Shown: positions 1-18,037 of the stretch, one piece after another
Layout of the letters: every line of letters begins with the position of its first letter
How positions within the stretch are numbered: position 1 is the stretch's first letter
IMG/VR virus record: IMGVR_UViG_2537561992_000022
Source of the DNA: a virus
Taxonomy: Duplodnaviria; Heunggongvirae; Uroviricota; Caudoviricetes
Length of the DNA: 35,929 nt
Reading direction: 5' to 3' (one strand)
Notes under the pieces: model-generated
Seen by the model: only the letters and a program-made list of their open reading frames with translations
The model's database searches: none
What the model was told of the DNA's origin: nothing
Made by a program: the position numbers and the translations under genes

Positions 1-588
1 AGTTTCATTATCGCTATTGTGATGCTGATTGCCGCCAGTGTTCTCCTTGTGTGGATGTTCAGCGCCTTCCATTTCCTCCGGATCATCTTCCTGAACTTCA
101 ACCTGATACTCTTCATCGAATGTTTCTTGGTATGTTGCGTCGCCCATCACCGCGCCACAATCAGGGCAGTTGCCGCCGCCGGTCTGACCGCAGGCGGTGC
201 AGGCTTTTTCCACTTCCTGTTGCGCCACTGGTTCAGGCTGTTTCGTTTCTGGCTCGTTTTGTAACGCATTTGGACTGTTTTGTTCCGCTTTTTGGTAGTT
301 CCGTTCCGATTCATGCTGGTTCTGGTTCACAGAATCGCGGGTCTGGATCCCCTTAACCCATTTCGGATCATTCGGGTCACTAATCCCTTCAACAAATTCA
401 CCACGTGATGCAGCAAGCAACTTATCGGCGTCAGGCTGGCTGATATTGGCTGCCTGCATAATTTTGTTTACTTCGTCAGCGGTAACTTTTATCGGCTCTG
501 GTTGTTCTGAATCTTCAGCGGTATCTACATTTTGCGGTAAGCCCGTGTATGTGCCATTTTTCGGGCAAAATATTCTTCTTTTGTGATT
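1..588 (-). CDS. hypothetical prophage early-region protein, partial (frame open to window start); Cys-rich CTACGQ...CPDCG segment
   Basis: Minus-strand frame open from the stop at 589-591 to position 1; protein-like translation; no in-frame ATG before the overlap with the upstream ORF. Confidence 0.4.
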
Positions 589-1208
589 TCAGTGGCGCCA
601 GCAGCCAGTGCCTTATCCAGACCAGAAAGTTTGTTTGCGCGACCGTATTTTTCTCCGTCCTTATCTGCGAAGAGGAAATAGAACGGCCCCTCACGCTCTA
701 CAGATGGTTCAGCTTCCGGCGCGGTTTCATTTTTTGGGATATCAGATACCTCAGTTTCCACTGCATCAGTTTGTGTTTCTGATGACTGGAGAACATCAAC
801 AGTGCCCAGGTCTGTTTCTTCATTCTCAAACACGCCCTTTGTCGTCAGGTATTCGCAGATATATTTGTTCAGTGCTACGGGATCTTTGTGAATGTCGATC
901 GGACGCTCACGGACAAGGCCAAAAATAGTTTGGCGGTCGTAGCGAAGGGCATCAGGCTGTTTGCGCATTGATGCCGAGATACGCTTCCAGTCTTCGCGGT
1001 CGTTGTCGATAACTTCTTTTTTTGCCCAGCGATGGATGCTGCCGTCAATGTTTCCGGCATCCACATCACCAGGCCAGAGAGCGTAGGCCAGTTCGTCATC
1101 CAGTGTTTTCCATGTCTGCTTGTATTCGCGATGAATGGCAGCAATGACCGGGCTGATTTTTCCTGTTGAATTTTCAGTGTACTGAGGTAGCCTGAGTTTA
1201 ACGGACAC
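525..1208 (-). CDS. hypothetical prophage early-region protein; its only start (GTG 1206-1208) lies inside the IS left terminus, so the N-terminus is probably truncated
   Basis: 227-codon ORF in the track; protein-like composition; stop at 525-527. Confidence 0.45.
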
Positions 1209-2437
1209 TCCTTCCTGAAATAGAATGGCATCAGAAGGAGCTAATAATGAGCAGAAAAACCCAACGTTACTCTAAAGAGTTCAAAGCCGAAGCTGTCAGA
1301 ACGGTTCTTGAAAATCAACTTTCGATCAGTGAAGGCGCTTCCCGATTATCTCTTCCTGAAGGCACTTTAGGACAATGGGTTACCGCCGCCAGAAAAGGGC
1401 TCGGTACTCCTGGTTCCCGCACGGTGGCTGAACTGGAATCTGAAATTCTGCAACTGCGTAAGGCGTTAAATGAAGCTCGCCTTGAGCGAGATATATTAAA
1501 AAAAGACAACAGCGTATTTTGCACAGGAGTCGCTGAAAAATACGCGTTAATCGAACAATGGCGACAACAATTTCCCATTGAAGCGATGTGTCAGGTATTT
1601 GGTGTATCCAGGAGCGGTTATTACAACTGGGTACAGCATGAACCCTCAGACAGAAAACAAAGTGATGAGCGGCTAAAACTGGAGATTAAGGTGGCACATA
1701 TCCGCACTCGCGAAACATATGGAACCCGGCGGCTCCAGACGGAGCTGGCAGAGAATGGCATCATCGTTGGTCGTGACCGACTGGCACGTCTTCGTAAGGA
1801 GCTAAGGCTACGCTGTAAGCAGAAACGCAAGTTCAGAGCGACTACGAACTCGAACCACAATCTGCCAGTTGCGCCAAATCTGCTGAACCAGACGTTCGCT
1901 CCTACAGCACCAAATCAGGTCTGGGTGGCGGACCTGACGTATGTTGCCACACAGGAGGGATGGTTGTACCTCGCTGGCATCAAAGATGTTTATACGTGCG
2001 AAATTGTCGGCTACGCCATGGGAGAGCGCATGACAAAAGAGCTGACAGGTAAAGCTCTGTTTATGGCGCTCAGGAGCCAGCGCCCACCTGCCGGGCTAAT
2101 CCACCACTCTGATCGAGGTTCACAGTACTGCGCATACGATTACCGGGTCATACAGGAGCAGTTTGGTCTGAAAACATCAATGTCGCGTAAAGGTAACTGT
2201 TACGACAACGCTCCGATGGAAAGCTTCTGGGGAACGCTGAAAAATGAGAGCCTGAGCCACTATCGTTTTAATAACCGGGATGAAGCCATCTCAGTAATAC
2301 GGGAATACATTGAGATTTTCTACAATCGTCAGCGTCGTCACTCTCGTCTGGGGAATATCTCCCCGGCAGCCTTCAGGGAAAAATATCATCAGATGGCTGC
2401 TTAAAAAAAGAACAAATGGTAGTGTCCGCTATTGCCA
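1193..2437 (+). mobile_element. IS3-family insertion sequence, about 1245 bp
   Basis: Imperfect terminal inverted repeats TGAGTTTAACGGACACT (1193-1209) and AGTGTCCGCTATTGCCA (2421-2437), TG...CA ends, enclosing a transposase ORF. Confidence 0.7.
1247..2404 (+). CDS. IS3-family transposase, single in-frame OrfAB-type fusion (385 aa)
   Basis: N-terminal HTH-like region, A7G tract at 1498-1505, then MCQVFGVSRSGYYNW and DDE/rve-like HHSDRGSQY...SRKGNCYDNAPMESF. Confidence 0.85.
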   Translation: MSRKTQRYSKEFKAEAVRTVLENQLSISEGASRLSLPEGTLGQWVTAARKGLGTPGSRTVAELESEILQLRKALNEARLERDILKKDNSVFCTGVAEKYALIEQWRQQFPIEAMCQVFGVSRSGYYNWVQHEPSDRKQSDERLKLEIKVAHIRTRETYGTRRLQTELAENGIIVGRDRLARLRKELRLRCKQKRKFRATTNSNHNLPVAPNLLNQTFAPTAPNQVWVADLTYVATQEGWLYLAGIKDVYTCEIVGYAMGERMTKELTGKALFMALRSQRPPAGLIHHSDRGSQYCAYDYRVIQEQFGLKTSMSRKGNCYDNAPMESFWGTLKNESLSHYRFNNRDEAISVIREYIEIFYNRQRRHSRLGNISPAAFREKYHQMAA

Positions 2438-3118
2438 GTACACCTCATACTGTTGATTGGCTCTGGCGCGGGCGAGATCAACAACAGACGTGTATTTTCC
2501 GGTTTCCTTGCGTTCACCTTCGCGACGTTTTTTCCAGATGCGCATCTCTGCCTGAATTTCGGGCCATTTAGCACCAGGAATACATTTATGCTTAACCCAC
2601 CCAATGGCGTGCAACTTAAGCTCCGGATACATGGCGTTAACTTCTGGCATTTTCATCAACGCTTCAACGATATGTCCGTCGAATGTTGCCATGTCTTCCT
2701 GCAACAATTCCTGTGCGCTAATAACCATATCAACGGTGATGTTTTCACATGTGTCGAACTTAACCATGACAGCGTTCTGTACTTCAGGGGCCAGCTTGTC
2801 AAAAGTGACGTTCATCGGATCGGATTCAGTCTCAACCGGGACAAAAGAAGCAGACTCCTCATCCCAGCGGTTTTCCTGCATATATTCAGCATCCCATGAA
2901 TCGAGGGCAGGGCGGGGTATGCCAGGTTTATCCTCGCAGACAATAAATTTATAAGCGCAGTCCTGAGCAGCCGGATAATGTTCCAGGAACTGCCAGTGAA
3001 ATTTTGCTCGAGCACGGCGTTCGTCGCCAGCTTCAATGGCTGTGGCTACAGCCACAGAGCCTTCTTCCCTTGTTGCCAGTTCGTCAGGAATAGCGGCGCA
3101 AATAAAGACTTTACTCAT
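2429..3118 (-). CDS. ydfE: YdfE-like prophage protein; stop codon lies inside the IS right terminus, so the C-terminus is probably IS-truncated
   Basis: 229-codon ORF with GAGG RBS upstream of the ATG at 3118; last gene of the dicB operon by position. Confidence 0.5.
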   Translation of the reverse strand: MSKVFICAAIPDELATREEGSVAVATAIEAGDERRARAKFHWQFLEHYPAAQDCAYKFIVCEDKPGIPRPALDSWDAEYMQENRWDEESASFVPVETESDPMNVTFDKLAPEVQNAVMVKFDTCENITVDMVISAQELLQEDMATFDGHIVEALMKMPEVNAMYPELKLHAIGWVKHKCIPGAKWPEIQAEMRIWKKRREGERKETGKYTSVVDLARARANQQYEVYWQ

Positions 3119-3588: not shown

Positions 3589-3757
3589 TATCGCGTCCTC
3601 AACAATGAATTTTGTGATGCAGTGCCTGGTGCCTCCAGGTGACGTTAACCAGTTAACAATTAACGTCGGATACAGAGAATCCACCCATAACACTGTTTTT
3701 GGTTTTAACTGTTCCGCGTGCGCTCAGCCGCATTCACCGCATCACAAAATTCACTTT

Positions 3758-3815
3758 AAAAAGGGCGGCAGAGCAGTCACGGAGTAAAACTGATACCGCC
3801 AAACGTCACCAGAAA
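3758..3815 (-). ncRNA. dicF: DicF small regulatory RNA with 3' stem-loop and U-tail
   Basis: Minus strand reads TTTCTGGTGACGTTTGGCGGTATCAGTTTTACTCCGTGACTGCTCTGCCGCCCTTTTT, matching recalled DicF; GGCGG/CCGCC stem then T-run. Confidence 0.8.
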
Positions 3816-11120: not shown

Positions 11121-11148
11121 AACCCGCTTCGGCGGGTTTTTGTTTTAT
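11121..11148 (+). terminator. rho-independent terminator after hokD
   Basis: CCCGC-TTCG-GCGGG hairpin followed by TTTTTGTTTT. Confidence 0.55.
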
Positions 11149-12928: not shown

Positions 12929-13570
12929 ATGAACCTTGAAGCCTTACCAAAATATTACTCCCCAAAATCTCCAAAATTGAGCGATGACGCTCCAGCGACA
13001 GGCACCGGTTGTTTAACAATTACGGATGTAATGGCAGCGCAGGGGATGGTGCAGTCGAAAGCACCACTTGGGTTGGCCTTATTTCTGGCAAAAGTTGGTG
13101 TTCAGGACCCTCAGTTTGCGATTGAAGGCCTGCTAAATTACGCGATGGCACTGGATAACCCGACATTGAACAAATTGAGTGAAGAAATCCGGTTACAGAT
13201 TATTCCTTACCTCGTGAATTTTGCCTTTGCTGATTACTCCAGGTCTGCGGCAAGTAAGGCTCGCTGTGAGCATTGTTCAGGTACGGGATTTTATAATGTA
13301 TTGCGCGAAGTGGTGAAACACTACCGACGCGGGGAATCTGTAATCAAGGAAGAATGGGTGAAGGAACTATGTCAGCATTGCCATGGTAAGGGTGAAGTCA
13401 GCACAGCGTGCAGAGGGTGTAAGGGTAAAGGGATTGTTCTGGATGAAAAAGAACCCGGTTTCATGGCGTACCGGTATATAAGATTTGTGGGCGTTGTAAT
13501 GGAAACCGGTTTAGTCGTTTACCGACCACGCTGGCACGACGTCATGTCCAGAAGCTGGTACCAGACCTGA
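12929..13570 (+). CDS. quuQ: late antiterminator Q (phage 82/21 type, CxxCxGxG zinc-finger repeats); apparently frameshifted, C-terminal 76 codons continue in another frame to 13680
   Basis: GGAGA RBS and ATG at 12929; three CxxCxGxG repeats in frame, a fourth (CGRCNGNR) in the alternative frame after the A5 run at 13446-13450. Confidence 0.7.
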   Translation: MNLEALPKYYSPKSPKLSDDAPATGTGCLTITDVMAAQGMVQSKAPLGLALFLAKVGVQDPQFAIEGLLNYAMALDNPTLNKLSEEIRLQIIPYLVNFAFADYSRSAASKARCEHCSGTGFYNVLREVVKHYRRGESVIKEEWVKELCQHCHGKGEVSTACRGCKGKGIVLDEKEPGFMAYRYIRFVGVVMETGLVVYRPRWHDVMSRSWYQT

Positions 13571-13711
13571 CCGATTATCAGTGGTATAAGGGGTATGCGG
13601 ACGTCATTGGTAAACTGGTAACAAAGTGCTGGCAGGAAGAAGCATACGCGGAAGCGCAATTGAGGAAGGTGACGAGATAAATGATTTTTGCTGAAGATGG
13701 CGACATGATGT

Positions 13712-13740
13712 TTGCATTTTTCAAAAAATATGGATAAAAT
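13712..13740 (+). promoter_or_regulatory. pR'-like late promoter: TTGCAT, 17-bp spacer, TAAAAT
   Basis: Near-consensus sigma-70 hexamers just downstream of Q and about 50 bp upstream of a terminator. Confidence 0.45.
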
Positions 13741-13789
13741 TTTTTCAACGATGGGCTTTGTATACCCGACGTTAAGAAAAAGTAGAAAA

Positions 13790-13809
13790 CCCGCTGATGA
13801 GCGGGTTTT
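13790..13809 (+). terminator. tR'-like rho-independent terminator
   Basis: CCCGCT-GATG-AGCGGG hairpin followed by TTTTG. Confidence 0.6.
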
Positions 13810-14101
13810 GTGCTTTAAATGGGGCAATGGTAATGTTGAATCTCATCCCGGGACTCATGTCTGTTAACTTATTATTTAGCTGGTGACTTGGTTATTTGCC
13901 TGATGTTTAAAATGTTTTCTTCCAGTACAATGTCCCTAAACACAATGAGTCTGCTTATTATATTATTAGCAGAGCTATTACGGCCAAAGTACAGCATAAG
14001 CTTTTAAAGCCAATCAACCAGTCATCAAGACAGACGGGGTTATTCATAAAAACTCTCCATGTGTGATCCGATGGGGCCTGAAATTAAAGCTTTAATATAG
14101 C

Positions 14102-14314: not shown

Positions 14315-14614
14315 AAAAATTCCTTAATACTGATAACTTGGCGCACTATACACACGTTCCTGAAGAAAGCTATAGTTTTTTGATGGGGTTGAAGATGGCT
14401 GGATGTCTAAAATAAACATTGCTTCATATGTTCAACTATGCGTTAATGATTGCGTCGGTTTGAAGAACAGACGATATACGAAGTAGTTTACTAAAGCAGT
14501 TCTCATTTCAGGTGTTATTCACTTATTCCTTCTTTGAGTCTCTCCAATTAAGTACGAAGTCGTTTCTGTTATGCAAACCATTTATGCCGAAAGGCTCAAG
14601 TTAAGGAATGTAGA

Positions 14615-14830
14615 ATGTCAAATAAAATGACTGGTTTAGTAAAATGGTTTAACGCTGATAAAGGTTTCGGCTTTATTTCTCCTGTTGATGGTAGTAAAGA
14701 TGTGTTTGTGCATTTTTCTGCGATTCAGAATGATAATTATCGAACCTTATTTGAAGGTCAAAAGGTTACCTTCTCTATAGAGAGAGGTGCTAAAGGTCCT
14801 GCAGCAGCAAATGTCATCATTACTGATTAA
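14615..14830 (+). CDS. cspB: cold-shock protein CspB-like
   Basis: [38 protein letters not shown]...; long cspA-like 5' leader upstream. Confidence 0.85.
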
Positions 14831-15110
14831 AATTCATCGCTCGTCTGTATACGATAACGAAGAAGGCTGATGCCTGAGTAGAGATACGGACAGAGTAGTG
14901 AATATTGGATCTCTTTAATAAAAAGTAAGGAGGTCCAATACATGAAACAATGGCTAGCATATTTGGCAAAATCTTAATCAGGAAAAGTATGCTAACCATT
15001 GTGGTGAAGTGCAGGTTTGCTGCATGAATAGTTTCACAGCAGAAGCTAACTGCTGGCATCGCAAAACAAAGTGCGTAAGTGGATGACTCCCACAAAAAGC
15101 ACCACAATCT

Positions 15111-16115: not shown

Positions 16116-17138
<1,023 letters not shown>

Positions 17139-17500
17139 GGTAATATTAAATCGGAACATTTACATCGCGGAATGTAAAATTTAAATAAAAAGGACTCTTC
17201 CATGAGCCAAAATTCCTGAAATCTTAAGGGTAAGATAAAAGGTCTTAATCAGAATGACACGTTTTATTAATAAATAAAGCTATTCTTTCATTGCTGTGTT
17301 TTTCTTTACAAAAGTAATCCTTGCTATGGGTGGTTAATCATGCGTTAATGGTGTTCTGGTTTGTTACAAATTTATCTGAAGCAGTCATTGTTATAATTTT
17401 ATTATTTGTACCTCTTGAGATTTCCTTGTTGGTTTTTCTCTCTGATATTTTTTTTCGGACCATTCTGCCCAAGGGCTAATTTCTTCAAAAGGTAATAATT

Positions 17501-17713
17501 ATGTCTAACAAAATGACTGGTTTAGTGAAATGGTTTAACCCTGAAAAAGGTTTTGGTTTCATCACGCCGAAAGATGGCAGCAAAGATGTGTTTGTCCATT
17601 TCTCAGCAATTCAGAGCAACGATTTCAAAACATTAACTGAGAATCAGGAAGTTGAATTTGGTATTGAGAACGGACCTAAAGGTCCTGCCGCTGTTCATGT
17701 AGTGGCGCTTTGA
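17501..17713 (+). CDS. cspI: cold-shock protein CspI-like
   Basis: [43 protein letters not shown]...; long 5' leader. Confidence 0.85.
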
Positions 17714-17741
17714 GGTAGACAATATTACAAACCATATTCAC

Positions 17742-17941: not shown

Positions 17942-18037
17942 CTTGGTATCTATTCGATGGATACTCACATACTACGGTAACATCATGAAAAAAATCATAG
18001 TTTTTTTAACTCTGAACCAGCAGTGGTAGTGCCAGCG

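What the first reader, a model, noticed from the sequence alone, without database searches (positions are those of the whole stretch)
12929..13680. Antiterminator Q split by a frameshift in an A5 run
Q carries three CxxCxGxG repeats in frame and stops at 13570. The alternative frame, entered by adding one A to the A5 run at 13446-13450, encodes a fourth repeat (CGRCNGNR) and a protein-like 76-residue tail ending at 13680, for a total near 250 aa as I recall for K-12 QuuQ. As written, Q lacks its fourth repeat and C-terminus, which would impair late gene expression; alternatively this is a homopolymer error.
Basis: partly seen in the sequence, partly recalled or inferred. Interest (0 to 1): 0.5.

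Follow-up and report, generated by a model that had tools for sequence, protein, structure and literature searches.

The report
Frameshifted prophage Q gene, probably sequencing error
The late-gene antiterminator (Q/YdfT) of a Qin-like prophage is cut short by one missing A in a run of six; the contig carries several other one-base homopolymer slips, so this is most likely a sequencing error, or otherwise an ordinary inactivating mutation.

Summary
The ORF at 12929-13570 encodes 213 aa. Adding one A to the A5 run at 13446-13450 restores a 250-aa protein identical to YdfT/QuuQ of E. coli O26:H11 str. 11368. K-12 b1559 and the Q proteins of phages SfV and PhiR42_1 are also 250 aa. The protein belongs to the Q-lambda family, not Q21/Q82. 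The shift after K174 removes the fourth Cys repeat, which is the second half of the zinc ribbon, and the helix-turn-helix half of the body. As written, the product should be inactive.

The window is the whole contig ADUN01000041.1 of the E. coli EPECa14 draft assembly. Against str. 11368 it differs by only 2 substitutions. It also has 5 one-base homopolymer contractions and 1 extra base beside an A7 run. No complete RefSeq E. coli genome matches the A5 site exactly. The 1827-70 draft, from a neighbouring WGS accession series, shows the same error pattern.

I therefore favour a homopolymer under-call (about 0.72) over a real mutation in this strain (about 0.25). The same A5 allele does occur as the only indel in a few clean assemblies on other haplotypes, so the tract is genuinely slippage-prone. 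Either way the finding is ordinary.

The parts
12929..13570 (+). ydfT/quuQ ORF as written: 213 aa, made of 174 authentic N-terminal residues plus 39 out-of-frame residues. Deposited as EFZ42848.1, 'antitermination protein Q [E. coli EPECa14]'.
13446..13450 (+). A5 run. It is A6 in every best-matching complete genome, in K-12, and in phages SfV and PhiR42_1. This is the frameshift site, after codon K174.
13450..13680 (+). +1-frame continuation encoding the authentic 76 C-terminal residues (R175-R250) and the stop TAA. It corresponds to Q-lambda residues ~132-207: the second half of the zinc-ribbon arm and the HTH-containing half of the body.
13265..13288 (+). CxxCxGxG repeat 1 (CEHCSGTG, aa 113-120), in frame.
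13370..13393 (+). CxxCxGxG repeat 2 (CQHCHGKG, aa 148-155), in frame.
13409..13432 (+). CxxCxGxG repeat 3 (CRGCKGKG, aa 161-168), in frame. It aligns with the first Cys pair of the Q-lambda zinc ribbon.
13486..13509 (+). Repeat 4 (CGRCNGNR, aa 187-194 of the intact protein), out of frame in the window. It aligns with CGRCKGVG of Q-lambda.
13711..13740 (+). Candidate late promoter (TTTGCA-18-TAAAAT), 31 nt after the authentic Q stop. This is a consensus match only, so the role is inferred.
13779..13816 (+). Strong hairpin (core 13786-13809, -30.5 kcal/mol for the 86-nt fold, z=-4.7). It lies 106 nt after the Q stop, the same position as the annotated rho-independent terminator of phage SfV. It is the likely terminator that Q reads through.
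557..561 (.). T5, where str. 11368 and EH031 have T6. It lies inside the IS600-split exonuclease gene. One of the companion one-base contractions.
1506..1506 (+). Extra A directly after the A7G slippery site of IS600. No exact match was found in complete genomes.
11143..11146 (.). T4 where relatives have T5, in the hokD-rem intergenic region. No exact match was found in complete genomes.
16721..16727 (+). A7 where relatives have A8, at the 5' end of rzpQ. It turns the 165-aa spanin-like gene into a 140-aa ORF starting at 16716.
18001..18007 (+). T7 where O26 relatives have T8, at ynfR/ynfN. T7 is also the K-12 allele.

Best explanation
The gene is ydfT/quuQ, the Q-lambda-family late-gene antiterminator of a Qin-like lambdoid prophage. 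In this record one A is missing from an A6 tract. I think the missing base is most likely a homopolymer under-call in the draft assembly of E. coli EPECa14 (contig ADUN01000041.1). The real strain would then carry the intact 250-aa gene, as all its close O26-type relatives do. Shown: the indel, the identity of the restored protein, the source record, and the pattern of companion indels. Inferred: that the cause is technical. From memory and not verified here: that this assembly was made by pyrosequencing.
For: (1) The window is 100% identical to ADUN01000041.1 of GCA_000188755.2, a 35,929-bp contig. The truncated protein is EFZ42848.1 from E. coli EPECa14.
(2) Across the whole window, the differences from O26:H11 str. 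11368 are 2 substitutions, 5 one-base contractions of A/T runs (561, 11146, 13450, 16727, 18007) and 1 extra A beside an A7 run (1506). If natural indels run at roughly a tenth of substitutions (a figure I assumed, not one measured here), 5 or more indels has P of about 2e-6 to 4e-3.
(3) No complete RefSeq E. coli genome matches the A5 site at 100%, with either 141 or 105 bases of flank. All best hits are one base longer. The T4 at 11146 and the extra A at 1506 also have no exact match. The A7 at 16727 is matched by only 3 complete genomes.
(4) On the window's own synonymous haplotype, A5 is seen only in this assembly.
(5) The draft of E. coli 1827-70 (ADUK01, a neighbouring WGS accession series) has 4 homopolymer contractions and 1 substitution in 4.1 kb against a complete genome, including the same A5.
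(6) Several other assemblies with A5 are visibly error-laden, with many homopolymer indels: L021, L023, L025, L026 and L028.
(7) A published comparison lists EPECa14 among strains whose YjcC has a substituted C-terminus, and attributes these substitutions across the strains to single-nucleotide or several-nucleotide deletions (PMC10459773).
Against: No reads are available, so the call cannot be checked directly. The same A5 allele is the only indel over 3.7-6 kb in apparently clean assemblies on other haplotypes: L024, L027 and L005. L020 and L022 carry just one further one-base indel, a G5 to G4 change that the two share. Real slippage at this tract therefore happens in nature. The T7 at 18007 is a common natural allele, also found in K-12. 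All five contractions lie in the first 18 kb and none in the last 18 kb, which is only weakly unusual (P about 0.1 given 101 versus 60 A/T runs of 5 or more). The prophage already carries IS insertions, so relaxed selection would tolerate a real loss of Q. The sequencing platform could not be confirmed from the literature.
Confidence: 0.72

Rival explanations
1. The mutation is real. Replication slippage in the A6 tract of ydfT in strain EPECa14 deleted one A and made Q a pseudogene. The product keeps the N-terminal torus-forming and half-body region. It lacks half of the zinc ribbon and the helix-turn-helix, so it cannot bind its DNA site or load onto RNA polymerase. Transcription from the late promoter would then stop at the terminator at about 13786-13809, silencing the lysis and morphogenesis genes of an already decaying prophage.
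For: The same -1 allele occurs on at least 4 synonymous haplotypes. It is the only indel in L024, L027 and L005, which look like clean assemblies; L020 and L022 have one further shared indel. The second 213-aa variant, P0004, is listed in 69 blocks of the collection. The prophage is degraded: IS600 sits in the exonuclease gene and there is an ISEsa1 remnant. The lost segment corresponds to Q-lambda arm residues 114-152 (in part) and body residues 153-207, which include the HTH, the NusA contacts at 182-197, and L202 and T206.
Against: The indel-to-substitution ratio in this contig is far above natural expectation. Three of the companion indels are unique to this record. No complete genome carries A5 with identical flanks. 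All O26-type relatives that are otherwise identical over kilobases have A6.
Confidence: 0.25
2. The A5 allele is functional or leaky. A -1 slip of tRNA-Lys on A_AAA_G, or transcriptional slippage, restores the frame and makes some full-length Q, giving a damped late-gene switch.
For: A -1 slip at the Lys codon 13448-13450 would give exactly the wild-type 250-aa protein. A_AAA_G-type sites are known to be slippery in E. coli (general knowledge).
Against: The intact homologues examined here are single A6 ORFs: O26 str. 11368, K-12, and phages SfV and PhiR42_1. The frameshifted arrangement is therefore not the conserved form. There is no tandem-slippery heptamer in frame. The 70 nt downstream fold no better than shuffled sequence (z=-0.54). 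An A5 run is too short for appreciable RNA polymerase slippage (general knowledge).
Confidence: 0.02
3. The A tract is a contingency (phase-variable) switch that reversibly turns prophage late genes off and on in the population.
For: The same site has shifted recurrently on several haplotypes.
Against: The tract is only 6 nt long. No complete genome matched the off allele exactly, out of about 2,150 that carry the gene. Many of the off alleles sit in error-laden assemblies. Only -1 variants were seen among the sequences retrieved, although those look-ups started from the -1 product.
Confidence: 0.01

Closest known systems
YdfT/QuuQ (b1559), putative antitermination protein Q of the cryptic prophage Qin of E. 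coli K-12; WP_001047133.1 in O26:H11 str. 11368
   Same: The restored window protein is 100% identical to WP_001047133.1. It differs from the K-12 protein at two residues (N96S, V157A). The neighbourhood is the same: relBE-hokD-rem-ydfU-ydfT-cspF-cspB-essD-ydfR-rrrQ-rzpQ.
   Different: The window lacks one A of the A6 tract, so the annotated product is 213 aa instead of 250 aa. This O26-type prophage also still carries terminase, portal, capsid and tail genes that K-12 Qin has lost.
Q protein of bacteriophage lambda (PDB 7UBM/7UBN, 4MO1, 7UBJ)
   Same: Clear sequence homology over both halves: YdfT 1-120 aligns with Q-lambda 1-125, and YdfT 160-250 with Q-lambda 117-207 (E=5.8e-36). This covers the N-terminal torus-forming segment, the four-helix body with HTH, and the zinc-ribbon arm. 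The gene sits directly upstream of a promoter-plus-terminator region and the lysis genes.
   Different: YdfT has about 40 extra residues (aa ~121-159) in the arm, carrying two more CxxCxGxG motifs. It therefore has four motifs and also matches the DnaJ central domain, PF00684. Antitermination activity and the binding site of YdfT were not tested here.
Q of Shigella phage SfV and Escherichia phage PhiR42_1 (deposited phage genomes)
   Same: Both are 250 aa and match the restored protein through the fourth repeat and the tail. SfV has an annotated rho-independent terminator 107 nt after Q, the same position as the hairpin in the window.
   Different: Both have the A6 tract and a single ORF.
Homopolymer-length errors of flow-based or long-read sequencing
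   Same: There are several +/-1 errors in or beside A/T runs of 5 or more, with almost no substitutions, relative to near-identical genomes. The pattern repeats in the 1827-70 draft from a neighbouring WGS accession series.
   Different: The platform of this assembly could not be verified with the tools. One of the sites (18007) coincides with a natural allele.

Membership tests
Q-lambda-type antitermination protein (Pfam PF03589 Antiterm) | Sequence match to the family model above its curated cut-off | tested here: met
   The intact form scores 181.6 bits and the truncated form 87.3 bits, against a cut-off of 26.7.
Q-lambda-type antitermination protein (Pfam PF03589 Antiterm) | Homology to solved Q-lambda over the N-terminal segment, zinc-ribbon arm and HTH body | tested here: met
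   For the restored 250-aa protein, the hit to 7ubm_Q has E=5.8e-36, with stretches 1-120 and 160-250. Domain limits are taken from PMC9388147.
Q-lambda-type antitermination protein (Pfam PF03589 Antiterm) | Complete zinc ribbon (both Cys pairs) and helix-turn-helix encoded in one reading frame | tested here: not met
   In the window as written, the frame shifts after K174. The CGRC pair (13486-13497) and the C-terminal 76 aa are in the +1 frame.
Q-lambda-type antitermination protein (Pfam PF03589 Antiterm) | Gene lies just upstream of a late promoter, a terminator and the lysis cassette | tested here: met
   There is a promoter-like site at 13711-13740 and a hairpin at 13786-13809 (z=-4.7). 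SfV has an annotated terminator at the same offset. essD, ydfR, rrrQ and rzpQ lie downstream.
Q-lambda-type antitermination protein (Pfam PF03589 Antiterm) | Antitermination activity at its own promoter-proximal binding site | not testable with these tools
   This needs a reporter or an in vitro transcription assay.
Q21/Q82-type antiterminators | Sequence similarity to Q21 or Q82 | tested here: not met
   The PDB sequence search at E<=1 returned only Q-lambda chains and unrelated weak hits. No Q21 chain was found.
Programmed ribosomal frameshift gene | The two-frame arrangement and slippery site are conserved among homologues | tested here: not met
   The homologues examined are single ORFs with A6: O26 str. 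11368, K-12, and phages SfV and PhiR42_1. No complete genome has A5 with identical flanks.
Programmed ribosomal frameshift gene | Stimulatory RNA structure downstream of the slip site | tested here: not met
   The fold of 13451-13520 has z=-0.54 against shuffles.
Sequencing or assembly homopolymer artefact | Excess of +/-1 homopolymer indels over substitutions relative to near-identical genomes | tested here: met
   There are 6 single-base indels against 2 substitutions in 35.9 kb relative to str. 11368. Three of them have no exact match in 5,426 complete genomes.
Sequencing or assembly homopolymer artefact | Read-level evidence of ambiguous run length | not testable with these tools
   No reads are accessible, and the platform was not confirmed.
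Phase-variable contingency locus | Long repeat tract with both lengths common in the population | tested here: not met
   The tract is 6 nt. No exact A5 match was found among complete genomes. The exact window protein is in 5 contigs and the second truncated variant in 69 blocks, against at least 1,000 contigs for the intact protein.

The most novel reading that the evidence does not exclude
The A6 tract in ydfT may be a genuine recurrent slippage hotspot that repeatedly switches off the Q antiterminator of Qin-like prophages in natural E. coli lineages. The A5 allele could then remain slightly leaky, because a -1 slip of tRNA-Lys on A_AAA_G regenerates exactly the wild-type protein. That would give a mutational 'safety catch' on prophage late genes.
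Probability: 0.04. Interest if true: 0.35.

Novelty: already known. Interest (0 to 1): 0.07.

Why it matters
It matters very little for biology. If the frameshift is real, it is one more inactivating mutation in a decaying, IS-ridden Qin-like prophage. It would predict that the lysis and structural genes downstream cannot be switched on. If it is an artefact, as I think, the value is practical. This contig and the 1827-70 draft contain homopolymer miscalls. Apparent pseudogenes in them (Q, rzpQ and a fused IS600 transposase) should not be read as biology without re-sequencing.

Tried and rejected
1. I searched IMG/VR for the exact A5 38-mer and found no hits.
2. I searched the literature for the accession (ADUN...), the assembly and the strain names to confirm the sequencing platform. 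Nothing usable came back. One paper mentions EPECa14 among strains with a substituted YjcC C-terminus.
3. An exact-product look-up of the fused IS600 ORF found nothing on record, so it was uninformative.
4. I considered programmed -1 frameshifting or transcriptional slippage. I rejected it because the homologues examined are single ORFs and there is no downstream structure.
5. I considered a phase-variation switch. I rejected it because the tract is short and the off allele is rare.
6. My first assumption was that all five contractions were private to this contig. That was wrong. The T7 at 18007 is the K-12 allele. The rzpQ A7 product is listed in 919 blocks of the large collection, although only 3 complete genomes match it exactly.
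7. I did not use the structure-prediction or large protein-search tools. The PDB and Pfam matches already settled the family.

Full report
**1. What is in the sequence**

The ORF starting at ATG 12929 reads ...GAT GAA AAA GAA CCC... through an A5 run at 13446-13450. It stops at TGA 13568-13570 and encodes 213 aa. It contains three CxxCxGxG motifs, at aa 113, 148 and 161.

Adding one A to the run restores a 250-aa protein that ends at TAA 13678-13680. This protein has a fourth motif, CGRCNGNR, at aa 187-194 (nt 13486-13509) and a 76-residue tail. The two products share 174 residues, and the written ORF then runs through 39 unrelated residues.

**2. Comparison with relatives**

The 752-nt stretch matches about 2,400 complete E. 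coli genomes. The best hits are all 99.9% identical and one base longer (753 nt), and all are annotated 'ydfT: antitermination protein'.

A direct alignment with O26:H11 str. 11368 shows one difference only, A5 against A6. No complete RefSeq genome matches at 100% with 141 or 105 bases around the site.

K-12 ydfT (b1559) is 753 nt. The Q genes of phage SfV and phage PhiR42_1 are also 753 nt. In a protein alignment all four continue ...DEK-RTRFHGVPVYKICGRCNGNRFS... to residue 250, while the window product diverges straight after K174. The frameshift relative to intact homologues is therefore certain.

**3. What the gene is**

- Pfam gives PF03589 (Antitermination protein Q): 181.6 bits for the intact form and 87.3 bits for the truncated form. 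It also gives a DnaJ CXXCXGXG match.
- The PDB sequence search hits Q-lambda: 7UBM/7UBN at E=5.8e-36, 4MO1 and 7UBJ. YdfT 1-120 aligns with Q-lambda 1-125, and YdfT 160-250 with Q-lambda 117-207. No Q21 chain is hit.
- The protein is therefore a Q-lambda-family antiterminator. Its arm carries about 40 extra residues with two additional Cys motifs.

The structural paper (PMC9388147) gives the Q-lambda layout:

- Residues 1-44 form the 'torus' that narrows the RNA-exit channel.
- The body, a four-helix bundle with the HTH, is residues 61-113 and 153-207.
- The zinc-ribbon arm is residues 114-152.
- Residues 182-197 contact NusA.
- L202 and T206 contact the torus.

The frameshift falls at about Q-lambda residue 131. 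It removes the second Cys pair of the ribbon, the HTH half of the body, and the NusA and torus contacts. I infer that the written product cannot bind its DNA site or load onto RNA polymerase.

**4. Context**

The neighbourhood is that of a Qin-like prophage: relB-relE-hokD-rem-ydfU-ydfT, then cspF and cspB, then essD-ydfR-rrrQ-rzpQ. Unlike K-12 Qin, terminase, portal, capsid and tail genes follow.

Just after the authentic stop there is a promoter-like site at 13711-13740. A strong hairpin follows at 13786-13809 (z=-4.7). It sits at the same offset as the annotated rho-independent terminator of SfV. This is the expected Q, late promoter, terminator layout, but the promoter and terminator roles are inferred.

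The prophage is already damaged. IS600 splits the exonuclease gene and an ISEsa1 remnant sits in the early region.

**5. Where the window comes from**

An exact-product look-up shows that the window is the complete contig ADUN01000041.1 (35,929 bp) of GCA_000188755.2. The protein is EFZ42848.1, 'antitermination protein Q [Escherichia coli EPECa14]'.

**6. Real mutation or error?**

A full-length comparison with str. 11368, and with strain EH031, shows that the window is otherwise almost identical. Only 2 substitutions were found (3725, 3731). The single-base indels are:

| Position | Change | Location |
|---|---|---|
| 561 | T6 to T5 | IS600-split exonuclease gene |
| 1506 | extra A | directly after the A7G of IS600 |
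| 11146 | T5 to T4 | hokD-rem intergenic |
| 13450 | A6 to A5 | ydfT |
| 16727 | A8 to A7 | rzpQ |
| 18007 | T8 to T7 | ynfR/ynfN |

Six homopolymer-associated indels against two substitutions is far from the natural ratio. If indels occur at about a tenth of the substitution rate (an assumed figure), the Poisson probability of 5 or more is about 1e-6 to 1e-3.

How the companion indels fare in complete genomes:

- The sites at 11146 and 1506 have no exact match.
- The A7 at 16727 is matched by only 3 complete genomes.
- The T7 at 18007 is a common natural allele, also present in K-12. This weakens that one site as evidence.

The draft of E. coli 1827-70 (ADUK01, a neighbouring WGS accession series) carries the same A5. 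It also has three more homopolymer contractions in 4.1 kb, with one substitution, against a complete genome. A published comparison lists EPECa14 among strains whose YjcC has a substituted C-terminus, and attributes these substitutions across the strains to single-nucleotide or several-nucleotide deletions. I recall that these 2010-11 drafts were pyrosequenced, but I could not confirm it.

**7. Evidence on the other side**

The exact 213-aa product is also encoded in GCA_014808725.1 and in three Logan contigs. A second 213-aa variant on the K-12-like background (N96S, V157A) is listed in 69 blocks.

Haplotype comparison shows A5 on four different synonymous backgrounds. The window's own background with A5 is seen only in EPECa14.

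Some of the A5 assemblies are full of homopolymer errors: L019, L021, L023, L025, L026 and L028. In L024, L027 and L005, A5 is the only indel over 3.7-6 kb against complete genomes that carry an intact 753-nt gene. L020 and L022 have one further shared one-base indel (G5 to G4). Real slippage at this A6 tract therefore does occur in nature, and a real mutation in EPECa14 cannot be excluded.

**8. Other readings**

A -1 slip of tRNA-Lys on A_AAA_G would regenerate exactly the wild-type protein. However, the homologues examined are single ORFs, there is no tandem slippery heptamer in frame, and the downstream RNA folds no better than shuffles (z=-0.54). Programmed frameshifting is therefore rejected, and at most trace leakiness is conceivable. 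A phase-variation switch is unlikely for a 6-nt tract whose off allele has no exact match in complete genomes.

**9. Verdict**

- The most likely cause is a homopolymer under-call in the EPECa14 draft (about 0.72).
- The main rival is a genuine slippage mutation that inactivates Q in a decaying prophage (about 0.25).
- Both are ordinary and of a well-known kind, so interest is low.

Noticed in passing
window 1247-2404 (IS600; extra A at 1506): An extra A directly after the A7G programmed-frameshift site fuses IS600 orfA and orfB into one 385-aa ORF (junction ...ILKK-D-NSVF...). No exact match was found among about 7,400 IS600-like places in complete E. coli genomes. It is either a sequencing error beside the A7 run or a constitutive-transposase variant.
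   Followed up: partly
window 16716-17138 (rzpQ; A7 at 16721-16727): A8 to A7 removes the first 25 codons of the Rz-like spanin gene, leaving a 140-aa ORF instead of 165 aa. The identical 140-aa product is listed in 919 blocks of the large collection, but only 3 complete RefSeq genomes match the site exactly. This tract shifts, or is mis-called, very often.
   Followed up: partly
window 18001-18007 (ynfR/ynfN): There is a T7/T8 length polymorphism. O26 relatives have T8, while K-12 MG1655 and many other complete genomes have T7, as the window does. Both forms are annotated with an intact ynfN.
   Followed up: partly
L005, L020, L022, L024, L027 (ydfT at locus coordinates given): The same A6 to A5 frameshift in ydfT occurs on at least four synonymous haplotypes. 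In L005, L024 and L027 it is the only indel against complete genomes, which suggests recurrent real slippage at this tract. L020 and L022 also share one G5 to G4 indel.
   Followed up: partly
window ~13289-13405 (YdfT aa ~121-159): Relative to Q-lambda, YdfT has about 40 extra residues in the zinc-ribbon arm that add two more Cys motifs. This gives four CxxCxGxG motifs and a DnaJ-central-domain match, hinting at a two-zinc arm. I did not model it.
   Followed up: no
window 3763-3814 (-), 14454-14846 (+), 17355-17740 (+): Rfam finds DicF sRNA (76.7 bits) and two cspA-type thermoregulator leaders, upstream of and across cspB and cspI. These are the expected Qin features.
   Followed up: no
window 3725 and 3731: These are the only two substitutions against str. 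11368 (both C in the window, T in 11368). They lie 6 bp apart, just outside DicF. L005 shares the C at 3731, so this looks like a small natural polymorphic patch.
   Followed up: no
window 1183-2452 versus L003: In EPECa14, as in strain EH031, IS600 sits in the exonuclease gene. In str. 11368 an IS600 copy splits the integrase gene and an ISCro1 element splits xis. The same prophage therefore carries different IS insertions in close relatives.
   Followed up: no
L008 (Logan SRR12298928), equivalent of window 13587: This A5 allele also has an extra A, 137 nt downstream (AA to AAA). That would put the last ~30 codons back in frame, but it lies after the premature stop. It is probably noise.
   Followed up: no
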